Part shown: piece after piece, positions 52,485 to 63,999 of the stretch | Numbering within the stretch: the first letter of the stretch is position 1 | Layout of the letters: every line of letters starts with the position of its first letter | The notes under the pieces: model-generated | The model's input: the letters and a program-made list of their open reading frames with translations, nothing else | Databases searched by the model: none | What the model was told of the DNA's origin: nothing | Assembly (NCBI GenBank): GCA_031370005.1 | Contig: JANMPT010000021.1 | Location: forward strand, 101,043 to 165,042 | Length of the DNA stretch: 64,000 nucleotides | Direction of reading: 5' to 3' | DNA from: Bdellovibrionales bacterium | GTDB lineage: Bacteria > Bdellovibrionota > Bdellovibrionia > Bdellovibrionales > Bdellovibrionaceae | Translations under genes and position numbers: made by a program

Positions 52485-53321
52485 TCAAGTCTGGGCGCTA
52501 GAAATCTGGCCTATATTTTGACAATACTGAAGAAATCTTGCTCTTGAGTTTTCGTACTCATTACACATCTTAGTATGAAGTTTTTTCGCTCTTTCACTGT
52601 CCATGTTTTCTTCGTGCTCCATTAAAACACAGAACTTTTCGAAACGAAGAGCTCCAAGCTGCGCGGCACTTGATTTTAGCATATGTGCCTTCTTGCGAAG
52701 AAGATCAACCCTACCGTCTTGAATAAGGTCCCTCATTTTATAAAGCTCCTCTTGAGTATTTTCGGAGTAAATTTGAAGAAGCGATCTTAACAAAGTCTGA
52801 TGGTGATCGTCAAAAATACGGATCTTTTCAAGAGCAGAAGTGTCTAGAACTGGTAATTCTTCAAAAATGCGCCCAGACCACTCTTGTATTTTTGACTTCA
52901 ATTGATCATAGGTTACTGGCTTTACAACATAGTCACTTATTCCCACACGTCGACATATTTCAGCATCACTCTCATTAAAAGAGTCACCCGTAAAAACTAT
53001 AAGTGGGATACTTGCAAAGCGCTCTGTGCTTTTGCGAATATTCACAGTAGCCTCAGCCCCGCCCATTATATTCATATGGTAATTCATTAATACCAAATCA
53101 AAGTATTCATTTTGAAGTGCATCCAAGACCTCTTGGCCATTGTTAACAATTCTAAATTGAATCTTCATTCTTATTAGCATTTCTTGAAGTGGCCTATGAT
53201 CTATTAAATTTTCTTCAGCAATCAGAATCTTAAAAAAAGACAAATCAATACTTTCAACGTTCTGTTGACCAGCCACATCCGACTCCTTGGAACTTACTAG
53301 GTAAATATCTTTACGGTTCAT
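52485..53321 (-). CDS. Degenerate receiver + Hpt protein
   Basis: Receiver has DLVLMNYHM (Asn at the phospho-Asp site); Hpt AHMLKSSA. Confidence 0.85.
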   Translation of the reverse strand: MNRKDIYLVSSKESDVAGQQNVESIDLSFFKILIAEENLIDHRPLQEMLIRMKIQFRIVNNGQEVLDALQNEYFDLVLMNYHMNIMGGAEATVNIRKSTERFASIPLIVFTGDSFNESDAEICRRVGISDYVVKPVTYDQLKSKIQEWSGRIFEELPVLDTSALEKIRIFDDHHQTLLRSLLQIYSENTQEELYKMRDLIQDGRVDLLRKKAHMLKSSAAQLGALRFEKFCVLMEHEENMDSERAKKLHTKMCNEYENSRARFLQYCQNIGQISSAQT

Positions 53322-53523
53322 TTGTAGGTATATATAGGTTCTTATTTATATATTACAAGCTGTATTTTAAAAGCATTAAGCGTGTTTGGACAAAATAGTA
53401 TCAATTTAATCAAAAGCCCGTTTAAACATAGCAAAGTGTGAACTATTTACGCGCTATTCTTTTTTAAAGATGAGTAAAAATCTAAATTTGACAGTAAAAA
53501 CACATTTGTGTTGTATGCAGAGA

Positions 53524-54234
53524 ATGGAAAATAAAAAAATTCTCTTCATCGAAGATACACCGGAATGTCAGCTCATTCTGCAAAACATCCTCAAGGACTA
53601 TAAAACCACTACCTGCGTATCTCTCGAAGAGGCCTCTCGAAGCTTAAAGCAAGGCCCATATGCCGCAATCATTCTCGACATTGAGCTCCCTGATGGAGAT
53701 GGTCTCCGCTTCCTGGCAGAAATCCCTGAGGCACAAAAAAAACAAACCGCAATTTTCGTCATTAGCGGAAAAACAGCTTTGGCCAATAAAGCTATGGCTT
53801 TCACTTATGGTGCCGATGATTTTATCTCAAAACCCTTTGATCCAATCGAGTTAAAGCTGCGAATTGACGCAAAAATCCGCAAGATCACAGAGCAACACAA
53901 ACAAGCCGAAAGTTATAAAATTGAGGACCTCACGATCAATGTGGCCGAGCAGCGTTTGTATTTAGAGAATAAAAATCCAGAAGTCACAAACGAGTCCGGT
54001 CCTATCAATTTTACCTCCCTGGAATTTCGTATTTTTGCTTTTCTTTCAAAAAATAAAAATATGGTTATAAGCCGCAGTGAAATCATCAGTCATATTTGGG
54101 GCGGCAAGGTTTATATTACCGATCGCACCGTGGATGCTCACGTTGCTCATATTCGAAAAAAAATACAAGCATCCCGTGTAAAAATTGAAACCGTCTTCGG
54201 CACTGGGTACAAACTTATCGCCCTTACCACTTAG
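53524..54234 (+). CDS. OmpR-family response regulator
   Basis: IEDT, LDIELPDGDG, GADDFISKPF, wHTH RTVDAHVAHIRKK..GTGY. Confidence 0.93.
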   Translation: MENKKILFIEDTPECQLILQNILKDYKTTTCVSLEEASRSLKQGPYAAIILDIELPDGDGLRFLAEIPEAQKKQTAIFVISGKTALANKAMAFTYGADDFISKPFDPIELKLRIDAKIRKITEQHKQAESYKIEDLTINVAEQRLYLENKNPEVTNESGPINFTSLEFRIFAFLSKNKNMVISRSEIISHIWGGKVYITDRTVDAHVAHIRKKIQASRVKIETVFGTGYKLIALTT

Positions 54235-54338
54235 ATTTATTTAGCCCATTGAAAACTAGACGTCGAGTGACGATTTCTGCATTAGAACGTAATACCTTCT
54301 CATAACCCCCGTCGGATACTAAAGAAAAGGGGGTTCCA

Positions 54339-54878
54339 ATGAAAGAAAATTCGACAGTTAAATCGGACGTCTCGAAACGCCTGTCTTATCATAGAGACCC
54401 GGCCAACAATCTTATTGGCACATCACAGATTAGCTCCGAGTTTAATGAATATTTACAGTATTTTTTGGAATTACAAAAAATACGAGCAAGCAAAAGAGTT
54501 TTGATTGTGGAGGATGATCCAATCTCCTTGCTTGGGCTAAGACACATTGTGAAAAATTTCAACCCTGATATCAAATGTTTTTTAGCAACCAACATAGATG
54601 AGGCAATTGACGTCCTCGAAAAAGAGAAGTGTGATCTTTTAATCGCAGACTATTATCTTTCACCTTCTGAAACAGGTTTGGAATTGTGGGAAGTCGTTCG
54701 TGAGAAGTTCCCTTCTGTGGATGTAGTAATAACTTCTGGAATCGGTAATGAGAAATATCATGAGATAGTGCAAAACTTTGAATACCCCCCTCCTTTTTTT
54801 GAAAAGCCTTTCTCATTAGAAAAATTCAATAGTTATTTGAAGGAAATCTTCGGTGGAGTACACAATGGAAAGCCCTAG
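54339..54878 (+). CDS. Single-domain receiver protein with N-terminal extension
   Basis: VLIVEDD, IADYYL, TSG and EKPF motifs. Confidence 0.88.
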   Translation: MKENSTVKSDVSKRLSYHRDPANNLIGTSQISSEFNEYLQYFLELQKIRASKRVLIVEDDPISLLGLRHIVKNFNPDIKCFLATNIDEAIDVLEKEKCDLLIADYYLSPSETGLELWEVVREKFPSVDVVITSGIGNEKYHEIVQNFEYPPPFFEKPFSLEKFNSYLKEIFGGVHNGKP

Positions 54879-55194
54879 TTTGCCAAACAAGAATATGACA
54901 TTAATTTACCAAAATATTAATCCAAATCTGGAATTAAAACTCTTTATCAGCGGACAGTTGACCTTCCTTTTGGAAAAATGTCCGAATAACAGCAACTTGA
55001 CCGCCAAGATAGTGGATCTTGAAGACCGCTATTTAGTACAGCTCAATCTAGCCAGTGAAAGAAATTTACTTTTCTCTTCTGGAGAAGATGAGGTTATTGC
55101 AGCTGCACTGGATAGTGCAATTACCGATCTGAATATTCAAATGAAATATCGAGATAAAAATGAAAAGTATGAAATGTCTATTGATTTTTTTTAA
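54865..55194 (+). CDS. HPF/RaiA (ribosome hibernation factor)-fold protein, divergent
   Basis: LIYQNI..ELKLFI..L / AKIV..YLVQLNL..LFSSGEDEVIAAALDSAITDLNIQM fits the beta-alpha-beta-beta-beta-alpha HPF pattern. Confidence 0.6.
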   Translation: MESPSLPNKNMTLIYQNINPNLELKLFISGQLTFLLEKCPNNSNLTAKIVDLEDRYLVQLNLASERNLLFSSGEDEVIAAALDSAITDLNIQMKYRDKNEKYEMSIDFF

Positions 55195-55213
55195 ACACAC
55201 GGAGGAGTTTTAG

Positions 55214-56020
55214 ATGAGTAATATGGAAACTAATCAACACGACGGCAAGGAACTTGTGAGTGGGTTTCGCGACTATGGATACAGAACTACAGAAAAGGCC
55301 CTTGACAGTCACCTACAGGCTTTTGTTCCGAATATATTGGTTGTCGAGGATTCACAGGAGTACCAAGCGATAATACGCGGCTCGCTGGAAAGAGACCTTC
55401 ATTTGACTTTTGCATCAAGTATAAAAGCAGCTAAAGAGACTCTTGCAAACCGCGAAGTACACTTAATTCTTCTAGATGTGATGTTGCCTGACGGAAGTGG
55501 TTTTGATTATTGCAATGATATTCAAACAAATCCTGCCACCGCCCGCATTCCAGTAATTTTTTTAACAGGTAAAACTGGCGTCACTGATAAAATCTTAGGA
55601 CTTAGCCTGGGGGCTGACGATTATATTACCAAACCTTTTATTCCGCTTGAATTAAAGGCGCGAATCGAGTCAAAACTAAAGAAATCATTGCTTCATGATC
55701 ACAATGAGTTGCAACTACAGCGAGGCCACCTGCGGTTTGACACTCTCACCTATTCAGTCTATGCGATCAGTAACGATAAACATGAATTAATTAATATGAC
55801 CCCCATCGAATATCGCATTCTTTTACATCTGGCACAAAAGCCGGGCCTTATCTTCACACGAAACCAACTTATTGAGTCTATTTGGGGAAGTAATATCCAC
55901 ATAAATGAAAGGTCAATTGATAAACATATATACACAATTCGGAAGAAACTTGGTCCAAATGGCGCTTATATTAAAACACTACCAGGCCTAGGATATCAAT
56001 TTAACATCGATATGGAGTAA
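55214..56020 (+). CDS. OmpR-family response regulator
   Basis: VVEDS, LDVMLPDGSG, GADDYITKPF, RSIDKHIYTIRKK..GLGY. Confidence 0.93.
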   Translation: MSNMETNQHDGKELVSGFRDYGYRTTEKALDSHLQAFVPNILVVEDSQEYQAIIRGSLERDLHLTFASSIKAAKETLANREVHLILLDVMLPDGSGFDYCNDIQTNPATARIPVIFLTGKTGVTDKILGLSLGADDYITKPFIPLELKARIESKLKKSLLHDHNELQLQRGHLRFDTLTYSVYAISNDKHELINMTPIEYRILLHLAQKPGLIFTRNQLIESIWGSNIHINERSIDKHIYTIRKKLGPNGAYIKTLPGLGYQFNIDME

Positions 56021-56023
56021 GTT

Positions 56024-56446
56024 ATGCAAACAGAACTTTTTTTTAAAGATATACAGCGATCTGATTACGCAGTGGATTTTATTAATAAAAAAGTGTCAAT
56101 ATTGGCCGAGAAACTCATTCATCCTAATGAGGACCTGCATGTAACAGTTCGAGTAGAGAAAGATCGACAAAGAACCGCCAATCGGCATCCGATATTTCAC
56201 TGCGAAGTAACACTCAAATCGGGAATAAGCACCAAGATCTATAAAACTATTCGCCAAGATCGCAATCTTTTTCGAGCGATAACTTCAAGCTTTGATGCTC
56301 TTAAAATTATTCTGGGAAAAGTCCATAATCACCTACGGAACGACCGCCGTCGTCGCCGTATCCCAGAATTTATAACAGAGTTTCCAGAAATAAACATCGG
56401 AACACAGTCAGTGTCCGATGTTGAGGTACTTCCCGTAACTTTGTGA
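56024..56446 (+). CDS. HPF/RaiA family ribosome-associated protein
   Basis: MQTELFFKDIQRSDYAVDFINKKV..VTVRVEK..FHCEVTL..DRNLFRAITSSFDALK with a basic RRRRR tail. Confidence 0.75.
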   Translation: MQTELFFKDIQRSDYAVDFINKKVSILAEKLIHPNEDLHVTVRVEKDRQRTANRHPIFHCEVTLKSGISTKIYKTIRQDRNLFRAITSSFDALKIILGKVHNHLRNDRRRRRIPEFITEFPEINIGTQSVSDVEVLPVTL

Positions 56447-56761
56447 AATACGGGAATAATCAGTTGCCAATCGCTCAGAGAGCTCTTTGAGCTCTTCTTT
56501 GCTAAGCTTCGAACCTTCACGTTCAATAGTCTCACAAACGTTAGACATGGGCTTAATGCCCATGCTCAAGCAACCTGATTTAATATCATGGGCAACAAAA
56601 CGAACACTCTCAAAATTACCCTCGTTAATCGCGTTTTTTAATTTCGTTATCTTTGCAGGATAGTCATTGATAAAAATTTGAACAACCTCACGGGCCACCT
56701 CCGGCCCATAGTTACTTTCGATAGACTTAATACTTTGGATTGCATCAAATGTGGTTTCCAT
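56408..56761 (-). CDS. Stand-alone Hpt phosphotransfer protein
   Basis: AHDIKSGCLSMG motif in a four-helix pattern. Confidence 0.9.
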   Translation of the reverse strand: METTFDAIQSIKSIESNYGPEVAREVVQIFINDYPAKITKLKNAINEGNFESVRFVAHDIKSGCLSMGIKPMSNVCETIEREGSKLSKEELKELSERLATDYSRISQSYGKYLNIGH

Positions 56762-56785
56762 AAATAAATCCCCTTTTTATGTCAT

Positions 56786-57487
56786 TTAGTGCTGCTGTTC
56801 AGCCAAAAACTGGTACCCCAAGCCTGGCACAGTACGAATATAAGATGAACATATTCCTAGTTTTTTTCGAATAGAAGAAATATGCCTATCCACTGAGCGG
56901 TCCTCAATATAAACCGAGTCCCCCCAAACACTGTCGATCAATTGTTCGCGGCTAAGGACATACCCAGGCGAACGCGCCAACTTAAGCAAAAGCTTGAATT
57001 CGATCGGTGTCATATTCAGTTTTTGATTTCCCTTTTCCTCATTTAAATAAATAGAGTAGGTGGAAAGCTCAAATTTCAAACTCCCCCGTTGGAAGTATGT
57101 TTCTTCCTTTGCATAATAGAGGAATTTTTTTAATTTTGACTCAACACGAGCTCTGAGCTCTAAGACATCAAAAGGTTTCGTTACATAGTCTTCCGCTCCA
57201 AGCGCCAGGCCCAAAACCTTATCACCTACCCCGATTTTCCCTGTCAGAAAAATCACTGGTATTTTCTGAGTTACATCTTGGCTTTGCAAGGTTGTACAGA
57301 AATCAAACCCACTTCCATCTGGAAGACTCACGTCCAACAGGATAAGGTGGACTTCATTTTTAGATAATATTTCCTCCCCCTCTTTCAATGTCGTTGCTAA
57401 CAACAAAGAGCACGTTTGGCTCAATGCTGTTTTTAAGAATGGATGAATTTCTCTTGAATCGTCGATTGCTAATACTGTTGGCATCAT
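56786..57487 (-). CDS. OmpR-family response regulator
   Basis: AIDDS, LDVSLPDGSG, GAEDYVTKPF, RSVDRHISSIRKK. Close paralog of 55214-56020. Confidence 0.93.
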   Translation of the reverse strand: MMPTVLAIDDSREIHPFLKTALSQTCSLLLATTLKEGEEILSKNEVHLILLDVSLPDGSGFDFCTTLQSQDVTQKIPVIFLTGKIGVGDKVLGLALGAEDYVTKPFDVLELRARVESKLKKFLYYAKEETYFQRGSLKFELSTYSIYLNEEKGNQKLNMTPIEFKLLLKLARSPGYVLSREQLIDSVWGDSVYIEDRSVDRHISSIRKKLGICSSYIRTVPGLGYQFLAEQQH

Positions 57488-57544
57488 AGTATTCCCTTAC
57501 TCCTTGTTGTTGGTTCTCTTTGCATTTTATAAACTTAAATAATA

Positions 57545-58288
57545 TTAAGAATTCTTTTCTTTGATCTTCATTAGACTATCTAAAAACAGATCTGTGGTTC
57601 GGCGTATAGTTTCATAGGCGCTGGTTTTTTGAAGATAACCGATTTTCCTAAGGGTTTTACTCTTCGGAAAAACTATCTGGGATCGCGGGCTCGCAGAATA
57701 AATCAAAACTGGCACTTTTTTGTTTTGTATCCCAGTTGCACTGAGATCCGCAGTCTCATCTAACATCTTGATCGTTTGCAAGCCATTCATTGACGGCATA
57801 TTCCAATCAAGAACAATAAGATCATAGGAGCGCTCAAAAATCTCATCCACAGCATCCTGGCCATTTTCCACAACATGGGTCTCGCAGCCCCTTTGTGAGA
57901 GGCATGCTTCAATTAATTTTACAGAAATCGGGTCATCATCTACAATAAGCACCTTAAATGGAGCCTTGGATTTAGTTGTATTCAAGGAGCGCGTGCCCCT
58001 CCAAGATTTAATCTGCTCCGACATCTGCATAGCTGCCACATTCACACTTTCTCCTAAGGTTCTCTCTTCGCCGTAAGCTAAAAATTGACCTGTGACGTGC
58101 CGAACCAGAATCTCCACCCCAAAGCGAGAACCAAGGTCCTTCACCTTTGCTTGAATGAAGGCATTATCTGGAGACATATCTACAACCTTTCCAAGCTTGG
58201 TTCTTATCATAAATTCGACCTTTGGATTTGCATCTGCCCCCTCAAAGAGAACGTCCATCTGATTTCCGGTGGGCTTTACAATTTCCAT
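57545..58288 (-). CDS. HPF-like N-terminal domain fused to a receiver domain
   Basis: N-terminus VLFEGADANPKVEFMIRTKLGKV..FGVEILV..FLAYGEERTLGESVNVAAMQMSEQIKSW; C-terminus VLIVDDD..LDWNMP. Confidence 0.75.
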   Translation of the reverse strand: MEIVKPTGNQMDVLFEGADANPKVEFMIRTKLGKVVDMSPDNAFIQAKVKDLGSRFGVEILVRHVTGQFLAYGEERTLGESVNVAAMQMSEQIKSWRGTRSLNTTKSKAPFKVLIVDDDPISVKLIEACLSQRGCETHVVENGQDAVDEIFERSYDLIVLDWNMPSMNGLQTIKMLDETADLSATGIQNKKVPVLIYSASPRSQIVFPKSKTLRKIGYLQKTSAYETIRRTTDLFLDSLMKIKEKNS

Positions 58289-58506
58289 ATTTACCTCCGA
58301 ATAAGTTGTTGTAAGTCAGATATTATTATTCCGTAAAGCCGTCGAAGTGGTGTGAAGTTCACTTGAAGAAATATCAACATCAGGCCTGTTTTTTAAGAAT
58401 AAAGCTTTGCGTGCTTTAGATGAAAGCTTCACAATTTTGATTTTTTCATCACAAATCATTTTCAAAATTGTTTTTTTCCAAAATATCCTTATTATGTAGA
58501 TTGATT

Positions 58507-60798
58507 ATGTTTCAATATCTAAAAAAAAATGCCACTATTACTACTCCCTTTGCCCTAAAGCTTCCCTATATCTTTTTGATGGCCTTCGTTGTTATATTCA
58601 TTGGGGGAAGCGCTCTTCTTTACTTTAAAACACGTCCAGATAGCCGCATGGTGGGAATCGGGACTAGCGATAATCTTAGCGATCCCTACTATGTTGTTTC
58701 TCAGCATCTCAATGAATTTCATCGATTTATGGCAGGAATTGGTCTGTACAACCGTCAACGGATTGACAAAAATGAGTTTCTTCGCCGTTTCAAAGTGCTT
58801 CAAGAGGACAGCCTGAAATATGAAAATGATGCCGCTCTCTATCAAGAAGTAAATACCATACCAGGCGCCGCTAAGAACTTCAGGGATCTCAATGCCACGT
58901 TAAAGGAGTTTACCCCTATAATTGGAAAAATTTACCCAAAAGATCAGCAAAATCTAGATCTTATCTATGATTCTCTATCGCCTTTTGAAAGTCGTCTTCA
59001 GAAAACAGCGGTCTCAATCAACGAAAATAATATTCACTTCCATACAGCTCTTTTTCAAAAACAGGTTCAATCCCATCAACTCTTGGGTTGGACTTTATTT
59101 GCAATTGCAATATGTAGCATTCTCTTGTCTTTGCTTGCACATGGAAATATCAAAAACGTCGTTCTTCTCTTAGAAACTTCCAAGCACAAGAGCACTCGTC
59201 TGAAAGAGGCCATCAATCAAACTCAGCGAGCCAATCGAGCAAAGTCCGAGTTCCTCGCAACGATGAGCCACGAAATCCGTACACCGCTGAATGCCATTGT
59301 GGGTTTTACCTCTTTGCTGTTAGATACAAAGTTATCCTATGATCAAAAGGACTACATTCAATCCATACGAACTTCGAGTAGTACGCTGCTTTCTCTTATT
59401 AATGACATCCTGGACGTTTCAAAGATTGAGGCAGGTAAGCTCGTTTTAGAATCCATCGAGTTTGATCTGCGCTCAGTCTATACTGATATTGCCAACATCG
59501 TGGGCGACACTGTGGCGCAAAAAAAACTCGAACTTGTTAGTTTTATTGATCCAAAGATACCAAGGCTGATAAAGGGAGACCCTGGCCGTTTAAAACAAAT
59601 CATTTTGAACCTTCTTAATAATGCTATAAAGTTTACCCCCAGCGGAAGCATCGCCCTGAAGGTCTCCCTCCTAAATCTTACTGAAAAACATCTTTCATTG
59701 AAATTTGAAGTAAAAGACACCGGAATTGGGATTGAGCCCCGCCTAATGAATCATCTCTTTAATCCCTTCGCGCAAGCGGACTCCTCAACAACTCGACGTT
59801 ATGGTGGGTCAGGACTTGGTCTTTCAATTTGCAAACAACTAGCTGAATCCATGGGCGGAGAGGTGGGCGTCAGTAGCACTCCTGGCAAGGGCTCCACTTT
59901 TTGGTTCCGTGTGGAACTGGAGGCTGTGCATACTCAGCCCATAGAAAATCCACTCCCTGAATCCTTCTTTAAGAAAGACATCTTAATCCTTACTAAAAAT
60001 TCTATTTTGCAAGAATATCTTGAGTTGCAACTTAGAGAAATTGAGCTCAATCCGCATACTCCGCCCTTAAGTCGCGACATGAGTAACGTAACCGCCACTG
60101 CAAACACTATTGCAATTATCCTAGATCAAGGAAACCTGCCGTTTGAAATAGAGGAGCAAACTAAAGTTCTCAATAATATTTCTAGAAATTTTGAAATCCC
60201 GATTATATACCTTGTTGAGCGAACGCATAACCTAGCACATCTCTCTCCAATTCAAAGAATCAACTATATGAAAAAACCAATATCCCAACAAAATCTTTAC
60301 AAATGTCTCTTAGAGGTTTTGCATATTACGAACGTTCGCTGGGATGAGCCAGAAAAAAACCCGATAACAGAAAAGCCGACATTTGCTGTCTTAAATCCAA
60401 AAGTTCTTCTTGTTGAAGACAATCCTATTAATCAAAAAATTGCTTTTTTGATGTTGGAAAAAGTTGGTTGTAGCGTGGACGTGGCCGCTAATGGAATTGA
60501 AGCCCTAAAAGCACTCCAGCAGTTCACCTATGATTTAATCTTTATGGATTGCCAGATGCCAGAAATGGATGGCTACGAAGCCACCCGGCGCATTCGTAAG
60601 TTGCCAAAACCAATTTCAGATATTCCAATCATTGCACTGACCGCAAATGCTTTTAAGGAAGACCAGGTCAAGTGTTTGGAGTCTGGCATGAATGACTTTG
60701 TGACAAAACCAGTGGATTCCAGCACCTTGGAATTAAAGCTTAGTCGACACATCAAAGCCCCTTTGGCTCCAGGAGCATCAAAACAAGCTTCTGGATAA
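58507..60798 (+). CDS. Membrane hybrid sensor histidine kinase
   Basis: Two TMs; MSHEIRTPLN H-box; NNAIKFT, DTGIGI and GGSGLGL; degenerate receiver followed by an intact receiver (VEDN..MDCQMP). Confidence 0.96.
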   Translation: MFQYLKKNATITTPFALKLPYIFLMAFVVIFIGGSALLYFKTRPDSRMVGIGTSDNLSDPYYVVSQHLNEFHRFMAGIGLYNRQRIDKNEFLRRFKVLQEDSLKYENDAALYQEVNTIPGAAKNFRDLNATLKEFTPIIGKIYPKDQQNLDLIYDSLSPFESRLQKTAVSINENNIHFHTALFQKQVQSHQLLGWTLFAIAICSILLSLLAHGNIKNVVLLLETSKHKSTRLKEAINQTQRANRAKSEFLATMSHEIRTPLNAIVGFTSLLLDTKLSYDQKDYIQSIRTSSSTLLSLINDILDVSKIEAGKLVLESIEFDLRSVYTDIANIVGDTVAQKKLELVSFIDPKIPRLIKGDPGRLKQIILNLLNNAIKFTPSGSIALKVSLLNLTEKHLSLKFEVKDTGIGIEPRLMNHLFNPFAQADSSTTRRYGGSGLGLSICKQLAESMGGEVGVSSTPGKGSTFWFRVELEAVHTQPIENPLPESFFKKDILILTKNSILQEYLELQLREIELNPHTPPLSRDMSNVTATANTIAIILDQGNLPFEIEEQTKVLNNISRNFEIPIIYLVERTHNLAHLSPIQRINYMKKPISQQNLYKCLLEVLHITNVRWDEPEKNPITEKPTFAVLNPKVLLVEDNPINQKIAFLMLEKVGCSVDVAANGIEALKALQQFTYDLIFMDCQMPEMDGYEATRRIRKLPKPISDIPIIALTANAFKEDQVKCLESGMNDFVTKPVDSSTLELKLSRHIKAPLAPGASKQASG

Positions 60799-60826: not shown

Positions 60827-61642
60827 TTAATTAATATCCACAACCCGAAACTCATGTGCTGGGATTGGCTCTAAGATCTTTCGTGCCAGAGTCGTGAAGT
60901 GATCTGAGGAGTCCGTAGTCAGGATCTGAATATTTTGAACCCCGTCACTGGGACCTGTCTGAAAGTGAGAGCGCTCTATATCTTGAGCAATTAAGTCCGC
61001 GATAGCTTCACCGGAATCAACAAGCTCAATGTCATTACCAGTGACCTTGCGAATGGCTTCTTTTAAAATTGGATAGTGTGTACAGCCAAGAATTAAAGTG
61101 TCGACTCCCGTCTTTACGATGGGATTTACGTAGCGATAGGCTACAAGATTGGTAATTGGATCATGATTCCAGCCCTCCTCAGCCAAAGGGACGAATAAGG
61201 GACAAAACTGACTGAAAACTTCTATTTTATCATCAAGACGAATGAGCTCCAGAGCATAGGCTGCGCTTTTAATAGTAGCGCGGGTTCCAAGAACTCCGAT
61301 TTTTTTATTTTTCGTTAAACTCAAAGCCTTGAAACTTCCTGGATGAATCACATTATAAACTGCGATGCCTTCAAACTCAGACTCAGAAAATTGCGAAGAG
61401 GCTGAGTTGCAGGCAATAACGACTGCCTTAACGCCTTGTTTTAAAAGATACTGTATATTTTGCTCAGAGTAGCGACGAATGGTCTGTGGGGATTTTGAGC
61501 CGTATGGCAAACGAGCCGTATCCCCCAGGTAAAGAAAACTCTCTTGGGGAAATCTCTCGGCAAGGACCTTTAAAACGGTCAGCCCTCCAATGCCAGAGTC
61601 GAAAACTCCTATGGGACGGGAGTCACTCTCTGAACCAATCAA
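60827..61642 (-). CDS. murI: Glutamate racemase
   Basis: IGVFDSGIGGLTV, PYGSK, IACNSAS and LGCTHYP motifs. Confidence 0.97.
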   Translation of the reverse strand: MIGSESDSRPIGVFDSGIGGLTVLKVLAERFPQESFLYLGDTARLPYGSKSPQTIRRYSEQNIQYLLKQGVKAVVIACNSASSQFSESEFEGIAVYNVIHPGSFKALSLTKNKKIGVLGTRATIKSAAYALELIRLDDKIEVFSQFCPLFVPLAEEGWNHDPITNLVAYRYVNPIVKTGVDTLILGCTHYPILKEAIRKVTGNDIELVDSGEAIADLIAQDIERSHFQTGPSDGVQNIQILTTDSSDHFTTLARKILEPIPAHEFRVVDIN

Positions 61643-62691
61643 GATATCACTCCATGAGCTCGGCTCTCTGCTCTGCCGTTGCTTGACATTTCCATGAAAA
61701 AAGCTTTCTCATGAATTTCAGCCACACTTGTAGCATTAATATAACTCATCCCGCTTCGAATGCCGCCGGTAATTTCCAAGATCACGTCCTTGGCTCGTCC
61801 CTTGATATTTACCATAGTGGATTCTCCTTCTGGAGCCATGCCCTCTGGCACGCCTCCGCGCCATGAAACCTGTGCCGATTTTGAAGCCATTCCTCGGTAT
61901 TGCTTCCTTCCGTGTTTCATTTCTCCTGGAGTTTCAAAAGTGCCAGCGAGCATGCTACCAAGCATCACAGTGCTTGCTCCTGCTGCGAATGCCTTGACTA
62001 CATCACCAGAGGTTTTAATGCCACCATCTGCGATGATAGGCACACCATAGCTATTTGCCACCTCAGCACATAGAGCAATAGCAGTTAACTGAGGCACCCC
62101 AGCCCCTGTAATGATTCTTGTCGTACACATAGAACCCGGCCCAATGCCAACTTTAATTGCGTCCGCCCCCGCCTCAATTAGATCTTTCACAGCATCCGGC
62201 ATCGCCACATTCCCAGCGATGATTTCAATTTGCGGATAAGCATCTTTGAGCCACTTCATGGTCTCCATCATTTGGATCGAATGTCCATGGGCAATATCGA
62301 TGGTGATGACATTCACTCCGGCCTCTACTAATGCTTTTGCCCGAGATTTTGCTTCATCCCCCACGCCGATAGACGCAGAAATAATTTTTGCCCCGGCATC
62401 TTTCACTTTAAAAACCATCTCAACATGCTCTTCAATACTCGCAAAACGGTGAAGAATTCCGAGACCACCAAGATTGTTCATGGCAATAGCCATCTCGTAT
62501 CCTGTAACTGTATCCATATTGGCACTCAAAATCGGGGTCTCAATGCTGAGATTTCTTGTTAACTTTGAAGTTAAAGATGGATCGCGGCGAGAGCGCACAT
62601 CTGAGCGTTTTGGCATAATCAGGACGTCGTCAAAGGTCAAACCACGGCCTCGGTTTTTAATATCCAACCAATTAAATATGAGCTGATGCAT
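61639..62691 (-). CDS. IMP dehydrogenase/GMP reductase family protein without CBS domains (possibly GMP reductase)
   Basis: [33 protein letters not shown] and ADGGI motifs; GGAGG RBS before ATG at 62691. Confidence 0.9.
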
Positions 62692-63364
62692 TAGATACCT
62701 CCCGTTGATTTTGATTTTCAAAAATCTCCATTAACAACTGGGTCGAAAAAATAAATAGATAAACATCTAACAAAGTCAAACCCAATGCTGCTATGGGTGT
62801 GCGCCATACCAAGCGATACTCGTCGAAAAAAACTGTCAGTATAGATGGGAAAATAAAATGAAAAATTAAAAGAATTATAACAATTTTAAATAATTTTATA
62901 CGCACCAGATGGGTAGAGGCAACCAAAGCGTCCTCATCTCCGCGCTCATAGGCCTTCGACATTGTTACTACGAAAGGTATCATCGTGTACTCGAGGTACT
63001 TCCAAAGCCCTGGTAAAATAAATAACAAGGACCACATTAAGGTTTTTCCCCAGGAGCGAAGGATCTCAATGCTCATTTGGTTTACATGCTGCAGAATATA
63101 TTGCAAAAGACCGCTTTCGCTGGTTTCGGCATTTTGCCCACCATAAATCACTACAAGAACGCCCAGAATTGGAAAGCTAATACCAATTACAAGTGAGACA
63201 AATCCATAAAGCCAAATCAAAGAATTTGCCCCATTCGGACTCTGCATAGCAGCTTCAGTATTGATAGTAAGAACCTGATCCAGACTAGTATAGATCAGAG
63301 TCAGGACAAAGAGCGGAAGTCCAATGCGTTTTAAGATTAGGAAGTTACGAATAAAGAAATTCAC
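62672..63364 (-). CDS. Hypothetical multi-TM membrane protein
   Basis: Several TMs; SLLFILPG motif typical of DUF975-like proteins. Confidence 0.75.
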   Translation of the reverse strand: MNFFIRNFLILKRIGLPLFVLTLIYTSLDQVLTINTEAAMQSPNGANSLIWLYGFVSLVIGISFPILGVLVVIYGGQNAETSESGLLQYILQHVNQMSIEILRSWGKTLMWSLLFILPGLWKYLEYTMIPFVVTMSKAYERGDEDALVASTHLVRIKLFKIVIILLIFHFIFPSILTVFFDEYRLVWRTPIAALGLTLLDVYLFIFSTQLLMEIFENQNQREVSNASAHI

Positions 63365-63498
63365 GACGTAACATAGAATCGCGACGGACCGTCAGAGTCA
63401 AAAGGATTTCTCAGAGTGTCATGATTGTGACGCAAAAAAAAAGCAAATGGATGACAGGTGATCTAAAAAATGATTTTCTTTGCTTTCACTTCAAAAAT

Positions 63499-63537
63499 GC
63501 CTCGGTGGCGAAACTGGTAGACGCACAGGACTTAAAA
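63499..63537 (+). pseudogene. Isolated 5' half of tRNA-Leu(UAA), duplicate of the downstream 5' exon
   Basis: GCCTCGGTGGCGAAACTGGTAGACGCACAGGACTT matches 63645-63679 at 34 of 35 nt. It is followed by AAAA, then no 3' anticodon stem or T arm. Confidence 0.85.
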
Positions 63538-63644
63538 GGGGATGTGAGTTTTGAAGGTTAATGATTTTAGGAGGTTGAGAGGAAATTGATAGACGGACCC
63601 GAATTTCGGTAGATCTGTCGCTCAGTATCCGCAAAGAAGAATAT

Positions 63645-63999
63645 GCCTCGGTGGCGAAATTGGTAGACGCACAGGACTTGCGAATGGACATGAAAATGTC
63701 TTTGCTGTGAGTGCCCCGCTGGAAATGGCGGGAGTAGAACCCTTCAAAGTCGGTGAACCCTCTCTGTCGTAAAGACAGGTGGCAACGCCGAGCCAAGCTC
63801 AAGGTGAAAATCTTGAGAAGGTGTAGAGACTGGATGGAGGGCATCTAAAGTTGATCGAAACGATCAACCATGATGAAGGCACAGTCCAGACCACAAACCA
63901 GATCGGTCAAACGATCAGGGCGGCGAAAGTCGAAGTGGTAAGAAAATCCTGGGATTCGGTTAAACGGTCGTGCCAGTTCGATTCTGGCCCGAGGCACCA
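63645..63999 (+). tRNA. tRNA-Leu(UAA) interrupted by a group I intron; exons 63645-63679 and 63943-63999
   Basis: Joined exons give acceptor GCCTCGG/CCGAGGC-A-CCA, anticodon arm CAGGA-CTTAAAA-TCCTG, a long variable arm and T arm GCCAG-TTCGATT-CTGGC. Confidence 0.95.
63680..63942 (+). ncRNA. Self-splicing group I intron (IC3, Azoarcus-like), 263 nt, no homing endonuclease ORF
   Basis: P1 ACUU/GAGU with a U.G pair at the 5' splice site; P3 CCCTTC/GGAGGG; GGCAACGCCGAGCCAAG; GAAGGTGTAGAGACTG; P7 GACTG (63828-63832)/CAGTC (63882-63886); GGC-GAAA-GTC P9; terminal G at 63942. Confidence 0.93.

What the first reader, a model, noticed from the sequence alone, without database searches (positions are those of the whole stretch)
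63499..63999. Duplicated tRNA 5' exon with its own P1-like guide pairing upstream of an intron-split tRNA-Leu: possible alternative-exon, decoy or intron-mobility system
Seen: a copy of the 35-nt 5' exon (63499-63533) lies 146 bp upstream of the real exon and differs only at C63514 vs T63660. It continues CTT|AAAA, the exact spliced junction. It then carries TGTGAGT (63543-63549), identical to the intron's guide region TGTGAGT (63706-63712). So it can form its own P1-like helix, GGACUU/GAGUUU, with a U.G pair at the equivalent splice position. Inference, three models: (a) a second usable 5' splice site, so one intron core can join either exon to the one 3' exon, giving tRNAs that differ at one D-loop base; (b) a ligated-exon mimic acting as reverse-splicing target or decoy; (c) a scar of intron replacement or of integration at the anticodon loop. 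I do not know of this architecture being described. The pairings are short and could be relics.
Basis: partly seen in the sequence, partly recalled or inferred. Interest (0 to 1): 0.8.

Follow-up and report, generated by a model that had tools for sequence, protein, structure and literature searches.

The report
Island scar with intron-bearing replacement tRNA
The extra tRNA half is the bacterium's own broken leucine tRNA gene, cut by a mobile DNA element that brought a complete spare copy containing a self-splicing intron; the cut-and-replace trick is known from phages, but here it also looks like a route by which such introns move between bacteria.

Summary
The sequence is as described, but the upstream copy is not a second exon. 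It is the host's original tRNA-Leu(UAA) 5' half: 5 of 6 congeners have an intact, intronless gene at that position. It was cut at the anticodon loop by a tyrosine-integrase element whose left end is the 107-bp spacer and which carries a complete replacement tRNA with a group I intron. The same spacer-tRNA cassette occurs in distant hosts, once with its integrase. No family integrase was found in this assembly, so the element is probably a relic. The P1-like pairing is at about 5% chance level and is lost in 2 of 4 family members; in G410 the orphan half has decayed. Cut-and-replace is known (tRNA-dependent lysogeny; pelagiphages), as is this intron class; this scan has noted the combination in other genomes. 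New here: one Bdellovibrionales integrase family showing intact, relic and collapsed stages that leave the intron at the host locus, and a by-eye tally in which all 6 replacement lineages with a target-like sequence carry an intron. Shielding by the intron is plausible, but three loci argue against it.

The parts
63394..63498 (+). Host DNA upstream of the tRNA-Leu(UAA) locus (probable promoter region)
   Evidence: 75-80% identical over 82-127 nt to the DNA just upstream of the intact gene in G001-G005; the simple promoter scan found no consensus site
63499..63537 (+). Orphan 5' half of the host's own tRNA-Leu(UAA) gene, ending at the last base of the anticodon loop = left junction (attL)
   Evidence: Occupies the place of the intact gene in 5 of 6 congeners; first 35 bases identical to G005's gene, including the D-loop variant at 63514
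63538..63644 (+). 107-bp left end of the integrative element (arm region and leader of the replacement tRNA)
   Evidence: 90% identical in G634 and 78% in G410; same family in L081, L106, L114; no match in the 6 congeners
63546..63553 (.). Probably a DNA site, not an RNA guide
   Evidence: Pairs locally; altered in L106 and L114; a similar complement occurs in G154, L083 and the intronless G436 element
63587..63620 (.). Two direct copies (63587-63593, 63607-63613) of the tRNA D-loop heptamer (63515-63521) and an inverted-type motif (63614-63620): putative integrase arm-type sites; each direct copy has one change relative to L081, L106 and L114
   Evidence: Same motifs at the same offsets in intron-bearing and intronless elements and at CAA and GAG loci; explains repeat family D1. 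Binding is inferred
63645..63679 (+). 5' exon of the element-borne replacement tRNA-Leu(UAA)
63680..63942 (+). 263-nt ORF-less group I intron after the first anticodon base (class Leu.3Ug of Williams 2020); U63679 pairs with G63709; last base is G
   Evidence: 92-95% identical to introns of L081, L114 and the native locus of G439; compensatory change at 63718/63729 in L081 (by eye)
63943..63999 (+). 3' exon with encoded CCA; the contig ends one base later
   Evidence: Exons joined in silico give a normal 92-nt tRNA-Leu(UAA); contig C49 ends at window 64000
60827..63364 (-). Conserved host neighbours: membrane protein (62672-63364), IMP-dehydrogenase-like gene and glutamate-racemase-like gene (labels recalled from the sequences, not from a call)
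   Evidence: ORFs; homologues next to the same tRNA locus in relatives

Best explanation
A tyrosine-integrase element recombined into the host's tRNA-Leu(UAA) gene at the anticodon loop and did not rebuild it. The host 5' half stayed behind its promoter as the left junction (63499-63537). The element's left end (107 bp, with repeats of the D-loop motif) is followed by the element's own complete tRNA-Leu(UAA), which replaces the broken gene and contains a self-splicing group I intron. The integrase and cargo lay further right; here they are unassembled, displaced or lost, while the replacement tRNA must be kept. The orphan half is a neutral scar that decays or is deleted by recombination with the 35-bp copy, which leaves the intron-split gene at the native locus. 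Shown: layout, synteny, cassette shared by distant hosts, complete elements in relatives. Inferred: crossover position, arm-site function, splicing, expression, order of stages.
For: Congeners G001-G005 have the intact intronless gene at the upstream position. All 4 other genomes with an orphan half among 401 phylum genomes, and G006, have a complete tRNA-Leu(UAA) within 0.15-1.5 kb and an adjacent integrase; two of three such integrases tested pass Pfam PF00589. G436 shows a whole 30.4-kb element, with the host 3' half at the far junction pairing with the host 5' half; G154 likewise. L106 has the window's spacer family, a full tRNA and a family integrase 1.3 kb on. Integrase-first search: 29 of 384 order genomes; 14 of 30 loci show orphan half plus complete tRNA, at Leu(UAA), Leu(CAA), Leu(GAG) and Cys. 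Intron 95% and 93% identical to L081 and G439, whose neighbouring host gene is only 66% and 69% identical in DNA. Decayed orphan in G410; collapsed form in G006:C36 against G474.
Against: No family integrase and no matching right junction were found in this assembly, nor in G634 or G410; the contig ends at the tRNA, so the element's body is not seen. The window's 3' exon is 93% like G005's host gene and 96% like a displaced 3' half on contig C84, so it could be host-derived. An intact intronless tRNA-Leu(UAA) sits on the 1.9-kb contig C40, so dependence on the intron-split copy is not certain. No RNA run was listed.
Confidence: 0.87

Rival explanations
1. Minimal 5'-fragment element: only spacer, 5' exon and intron came in, and the 3' exon is the host's own, as with phages whose attachment site holds the first half of tRNA-Leu.
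For: 3' exon close to G005's and C84's; the variable arm differs from L081 although spacer, 5' exon and intron are about 90% alike; many viral contigs carry such a 5' half; very short versions exist in other phyla (L095 with a 6-bp spacer, L100).
Against: In L081, L106 and L114 the 3' exon's acceptor strand matches the element's 5' exon, not the orphan half, and L106 continues into element genes. A host-like 3' exon is also expected after recombination between the element's and the host's 3' halves.
Confidence: 0.07
2. Functional alternative 5' exon or reverse-splicing decoy, kept by selection.
For: Local helix with U63533-G63546 in the window and L081; no terminator-like site on the + strand between the copies, so one transcript may hold both.
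Against: About 5% chance level; lost in L106 and L114; orphan decayed in G410 and in the older layer of L114; probability 0.05 in the precursor fold; the window and L081 share the pairing by descent.
Confidence: 0.03
3. Local tandem duplication or assembly artefact.
For: Metagenome-type assembly; contig ends at the locus.
Against: The spacer is foreign to congeners and shared with distant hosts; an independent contig spans both junctions.
Confidence: 0.02

Closest known systems
tRNA-dependent lysogeny (mycobacteriophage Fionnbharth and others; Guerrero-Bustamante and Hatfull 2024, PMC10865867; seen: abstract, sections 6 and 11, passages)
   Same: Tyrosine integrase, target inside a tRNA gene, gene not rebuilt at either junction, same-isotype tRNA carried by the element, repeats flanking the core.
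   Different: Not shown to be a phage; shared block about 23 bp (D-loop to loop end) rather than about 10 bp; replacement sits about 110 bp inside the left end; it often has a group I intron (the word 'intron' occurs only in that paper's references).
Pelagiphages HTVC119P, HTVC200P, HTVC025P, HTVC019P (bioRxiv 10.1101/410191; seen: passages)
   Same: Split the host tRNA gene in the middle, including tRNA-Leu(TAA), and are presumed to use the phage's own tRNA instead.
   Different: T7-like phages of SAR11; no intron mentioned in the passages seen.
T7-like cyanophage attachment sites and Islander 5'-fragment islands (PMC8776855, passages; PMC4383910, parts 1-2 of 3)
   Same: A 39-bp first half of tRNA-Leu is left as an orphan at one junction; 159 of 3919 Islander islands have a 5' fragment.
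   Different: There the element's 5' half rebuilds the gene on the host's 3' half; here complete elements keep only an internal fragment at the right junction, which Islander's internal-fragment filter rejects.
Leu.3Ug bacterial tRNA group I introns (Williams 2020, bioRxiv 10.1101/2020.01.27.920355; whole text held, not Table 1 or supplements)
   Same: Same site, U before the intron, G at its end, ORF-less size range.
   Different: The text read gives no link to integrative elements; its survey covers anticodon-loop sites only.

Membership tests
tRNA-dependent (cut-and-replace) integrative element | Host tRNA gene split at the attachment site and not rebuilt | tested here: met
   Orphan half at the syntenic place; right junctions with internal fragment plus host 3' half in G154, G147, G436; right junction of the window's own element not found
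tRNA-dependent (cut-and-replace) integrative element | Element carries a complete tRNA of the same isotype | tested here: met
   63645-63999; acceptor stems self-matched in L081, L106, L114
tRNA-dependent (cut-and-replace) integrative element | Tyrosine integrase on the element | tested here: inconclusive
   Present in L106 (same spacer family) and other relatives; not found in G000, G634, G410
tRNA-dependent (cut-and-replace) integrative element | Host survival depends on the element's tRNA | not testable with these tools
   An intronless copy on short contig C40 may be from another organism (upstream DNA resembles L292 and L035 of genus g3, by eye)
tRNA-dependent lysogeny (phage) | Temperate phage with virion genes | tested here: inconclusive
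   No phage-like gene set noticed in the ORF lists of G006, G154, G286, G436 (not scanned against PHROGs); spacer motif absent from viral contigs; one viral contig, L188, has the site, integrase and tRNA
Standard 3'-fragment tRNA island (Islander majority) | Gene rebuilt at the left junction, 3' fragment displaced | tested here: not met
   Left junction is a bare 5' half; C84's two displaced 3' halves probably belong to other islands
Leu.3Ug group I intron | Insertion after the first anticodon base, U-G pair before the 5' splice site, terminal G | tested here: met
Leu.3Ug group I intron | Group I catalytic core | tested here: met
   Rfam RF00028 full-length model match, 34.4 bits, E 4.3e-6, under the gathering score; Williams used 18-20 bits
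Leu.3Ug group I intron | Self-splicing activity | not testable with these tools
   No RNA holder listed
Alternative-exon or decoy system | Conserved second exon and conserved P1-like pairing | tested here: not met

The most novel reading that the evidence does not exclude
A Bdellovibrionales family of cut-and-replace integrative elements uses ORF-less group I introns as self-protection: a replacement tRNA that still resembles the integrase's target survives only if an intron splits the site (anticodon loop, or the D-loop motif in G057). Because the host becomes dependent on the replacement, the element decays around it and the two 5' halves recombine, fixing the intron in the chromosome. This would be a general vehicle for the patchy horizontal spread of bacterial tRNA introns that have no homing endonuclease.
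Probability: 0.4. Interest if true: 0.8.

Novelty: new variant of a known kind. Interest (0 to 1): 0.56.

Why it matters
How ORF-less group I introns spread among bacterial tRNA genes is an open question (my recollection of the literature; the older papers were not available to read). This family offers a concrete, testable vehicle with its stages visible in genomes, and a simple experiment on whether an intron shields a tRNA gene from an integrase. Such elements escape tRNA-fragment island finders, and their tRNAs are missed by intron-blind annotation (one search found no tRNA in the window). The vehicle part (about 0.65) is better supported than the shielding part (about 0.45).

Tried and rejected
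Linking the contig end to another contig by overlap or by downstream synteny failed; the DNA after this tRNA differs among relatives. No RNA holder listed: no evidence on expression. Promoter scan: 0 sites. Spacer motif in viral contigs: 0. 8 weak spacer hits (E above 1e-4) were not examined. 10 of 21 metagenome loci were intact tRNAs with extra A's in the loop and were dropped; 3 more showed no tRNA in the DNA held. Rows L130-L159 of the viral table were cut from view and not re-read. The mismatch count printed for G410 was one base out of register and is void. The orphan-half pattern was built to stop at the loop end, so it cannot show that junctions end there; the three CAA loci found through the integrase do. 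The mismatch tally was not computed by script, and the spliced product of the G057 gene was not tested. Ten literature searches found no paper joining cut-and-replace integration with intron-split replacement tRNAs; the library lacks most subscription papers, and bioRxiv supplements could not be seen.

Full report
Observation. The complete gene is 63645-63999 with a 263-nt intron at 63680-63942; Rfam's group I model matches it weakly but over its full length (34.4 bits, E 4.3e-6), and the joined exons make a normal tRNA-Leu(UAA). The contig ends at 64000. A contig from another sample spans 63508-63679 with 2 other letters. Titles of records with the same locus point to Bdellovibrionales.

Which copy is the original. 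Of 6 congeners, 5 (G001-G005) have an intact, intronless tRNA-Leu(UAA) behind DNA that is 75-80% like the window's DNA upstream of 63499. The upstream copy therefore is the host's own 5' half, and everything from 63538 on is foreign to these relatives. The sixth congener, G006, has an orphan half at the same place, then a 402-aa tyrosine integrase (PF00589), then a complete, different intron-split tRNA-Leu(UAA), and the host 3' half about 18 kb later.

A family of elements. A pattern for orphan halves hit 5 of 401 phylum genomes; the 4 besides ours all have a complete tRNA-Leu(UAA) and a related integrase nearby. Among 18 loci from the species collection, 12 had a complete second gene called, 7 with and 5 without an intron; 4 were cut by contig ends and 2 had none in 3 kb. 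G436 shows a whole element of 30.4 kb: orphan half, 110 bp, intronless tRNA with an altered anticodon stem, integrase, cargo, then an internal tRNA fragment (D-loop to loop end) fused to the host 3' half. A search by integrase alone found the family in 29 of 384 order genomes; of 30 loci fetched, 24 have a tRNA in the flank and 14 show orphan half plus complete gene, at Leu(UAA), Leu(CAA), Leu(GAG) and Cys. Five of these 14 are, or nearly are, sequences the profile was built from.

The window's own cassette. The 107-bp spacer recurs in L081 (spacer, 5' exon and intron about 90% alike, in a host whose neighbouring gene is 66% alike in DNA), L106, L114 and G410. L106 continues into element genes and a family integrase. 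No family integrase was found in G000, G634 or G410. In G410 the orphan half differs from the intact exon at 8 of 39 positions (by eye). The spacer holds two direct copies of the D-loop heptamer and an inverted motif at the same offsets as in intronless elements; the window has one change in each direct copy. I read these as arm-type sites (inference, by analogy with PMC10865867), and the window's element as a relic.

The P1-like pairing. It folds locally, but at about the 5% level in shuffles. Of 19 junctions folded, only the window and its close relative L081 pair the whole exon end with a U-G at the splice-equivalent position; L106 and L114 have lost it, three others have U-G only in short or broken helices, and intronless G436 pairs more strongly in another register. 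The guide and the spacer motif are both complementary to the same exon end, probably for separate reasons (RNA guide; inverted DNA site).

Movement of the intron. In a family sample, 123 of 136 genomes matched the 5' half; introns followed it in G000, G006 (twice) and G320, all at element loci, and in G036 and G439 at native loci, that is in 2 of the 120 genomes without an orphan (introns with A as sixth base would be missed). Three separate intron clades each have an element-borne and a host-side member: window/L081/L114 with G439 (93%), G286 with G036 (94%), G320 with the far junction of G006 (91%) (identity over aligned columns). At Leu(CAA), G474 has orphan, spacer, intron-split gene and integrase; G006:C36 has the same intron, downstream DNA and a 75% identical integrase but no orphan or spacer. 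This fits deletion between the two 5' halves. Direction is not proven; elements may also capture host genes.

Does the intron shield the replacement? I compared by eye the 16 bases before the loop plus the loop, orphan against replacement, for 15 lineages tied to this integrase family. With 0-1 mismatch: the 107-bp family, G320, G631, G286, G474, G057; 6 of 6 have an intron. With 2 or more: G006/G154/L108 have one; G147/G436, L188, G444, G490, G007, G563, G281, G538 do not (1 of 9). Fisher's test by hand gives 0.0014, with a threshold chosen after seeing the data and related lineages. I left out four lineages from other phyla with no family integrase (L087, L095, L092/L102, L088 group); L092/L102 are target-identical and intronless, and counting all four gives about 0.017. 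In G057 the intron sits in the D-loop and splits the repeated heptamer (Rfam 43.8 bits; U-G pair at the junction). Against shielding: the far junction of G006 has a whole intron before the host 3' half, that of G286 an intron-like remnant (by eye), and in L114 an older replacement gene of the window's own family was cut by a newer element. Fionnbharth's secondary sites keep only the three leftmost core bases (PMC10865867), which would lie wholly before such an intron. Shielding may be partial or integrase-specific.

Comparison and verdict. It works like tRNA-dependent lysogeny (PMC10865867) and like pelagiphages that split tRNA-Leu(TAA) (10.1101/410191); the intron is a Leu.3Ug member (10.1101/2020.01.27.920355). 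Ten searches found no paper on the combination. I reached the reading before consulting earlier notes; notes then showed that this scan had reported the same combination, and the shielding idea, in other genomes, and they led me to two of the papers. They are unchecked and are not counted as support. Verdict: real; a new variant of a known kind; the exotic RNA models are not supported.

Noticed in passing
L294:1121-1419 (G057): Element-borne tRNA-Leu(CAA) with a group I intron in the D-loop, after exon base 20, not in the anticodon loop; Rfam 43.8 bits, U-G pair at the 5' junction. Williams 2020 surveyed anticodon-loop sites only; I found no paper on D-loop group I introns. Spliced product not tested.
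   Followed up: partly
L004 (G000:C67:110972-111317): The same genome has a second intron-split tRNA, Leu(CAA), with C before the intron; its intron is 96% like the one next to a family integrase in G006:C36, so it may be the end stage of the same process.
   Followed up: partly
L002 (G000:C84): Two displaced 3' halves of tRNA-Leu(UAA) 1.28 kb apart, with a small toxin-antitoxin-like gene pair (label recalled) between them: stacked islands at the same tRNA.
   Followed up: partly
L005 (G000:C40:26-117): Intact intronless tRNA-Leu(UAA) at the start of a 1.9-kb contig; its upstream DNA resembles the native locus of genus g3, so the contig may be mis-binned. Many short contigs of this assembly have 55-70% G+C against about 43% for the long ones.
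   Followed up: partly
G000:C99:80553-80801: C-terminal fragment of an integrase like this family, 6.4 kb beyond tRNA-Leu(GAG), beside a heavy-metal-efflux-like cluster (label recalled): probably another decayed island.
   Followed up: partly
L100, L116, L088, L091, L096: Tandem 56-58-bp units, each a tRNA-Leu 5' half plus 17-20 bp, stacked one to two times before a complete gene: repeated insertion of a tiny unit, or tandem duplication.
   Followed up: no
L095 and L087 (Nitrospinota records): Orphan half followed after only 6 bp or 121 bp by an intron-split tRNA-Leu(UAA), with no family integrase in the DNA held.
   Followed up: no
L036:2404-2643, L083, L052, L050, L106: A small ORF (57-79 aa) lies just before the integrase or after the tRNA in five elements and aligns across them; candidate directionality factor or regulator. 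Not found in G000.
   Followed up: partly
L038:3723-5585, L081:1-819: Large serine-recombinase islands sit directly at the 3' end of the same tRNA in several relatives.
   Followed up: no
window 52485-60798: Dense cluster of response regulators, Hpt proteins and a hybrid histidine kinase (labels recalled from the ORFs).
   Followed up: no
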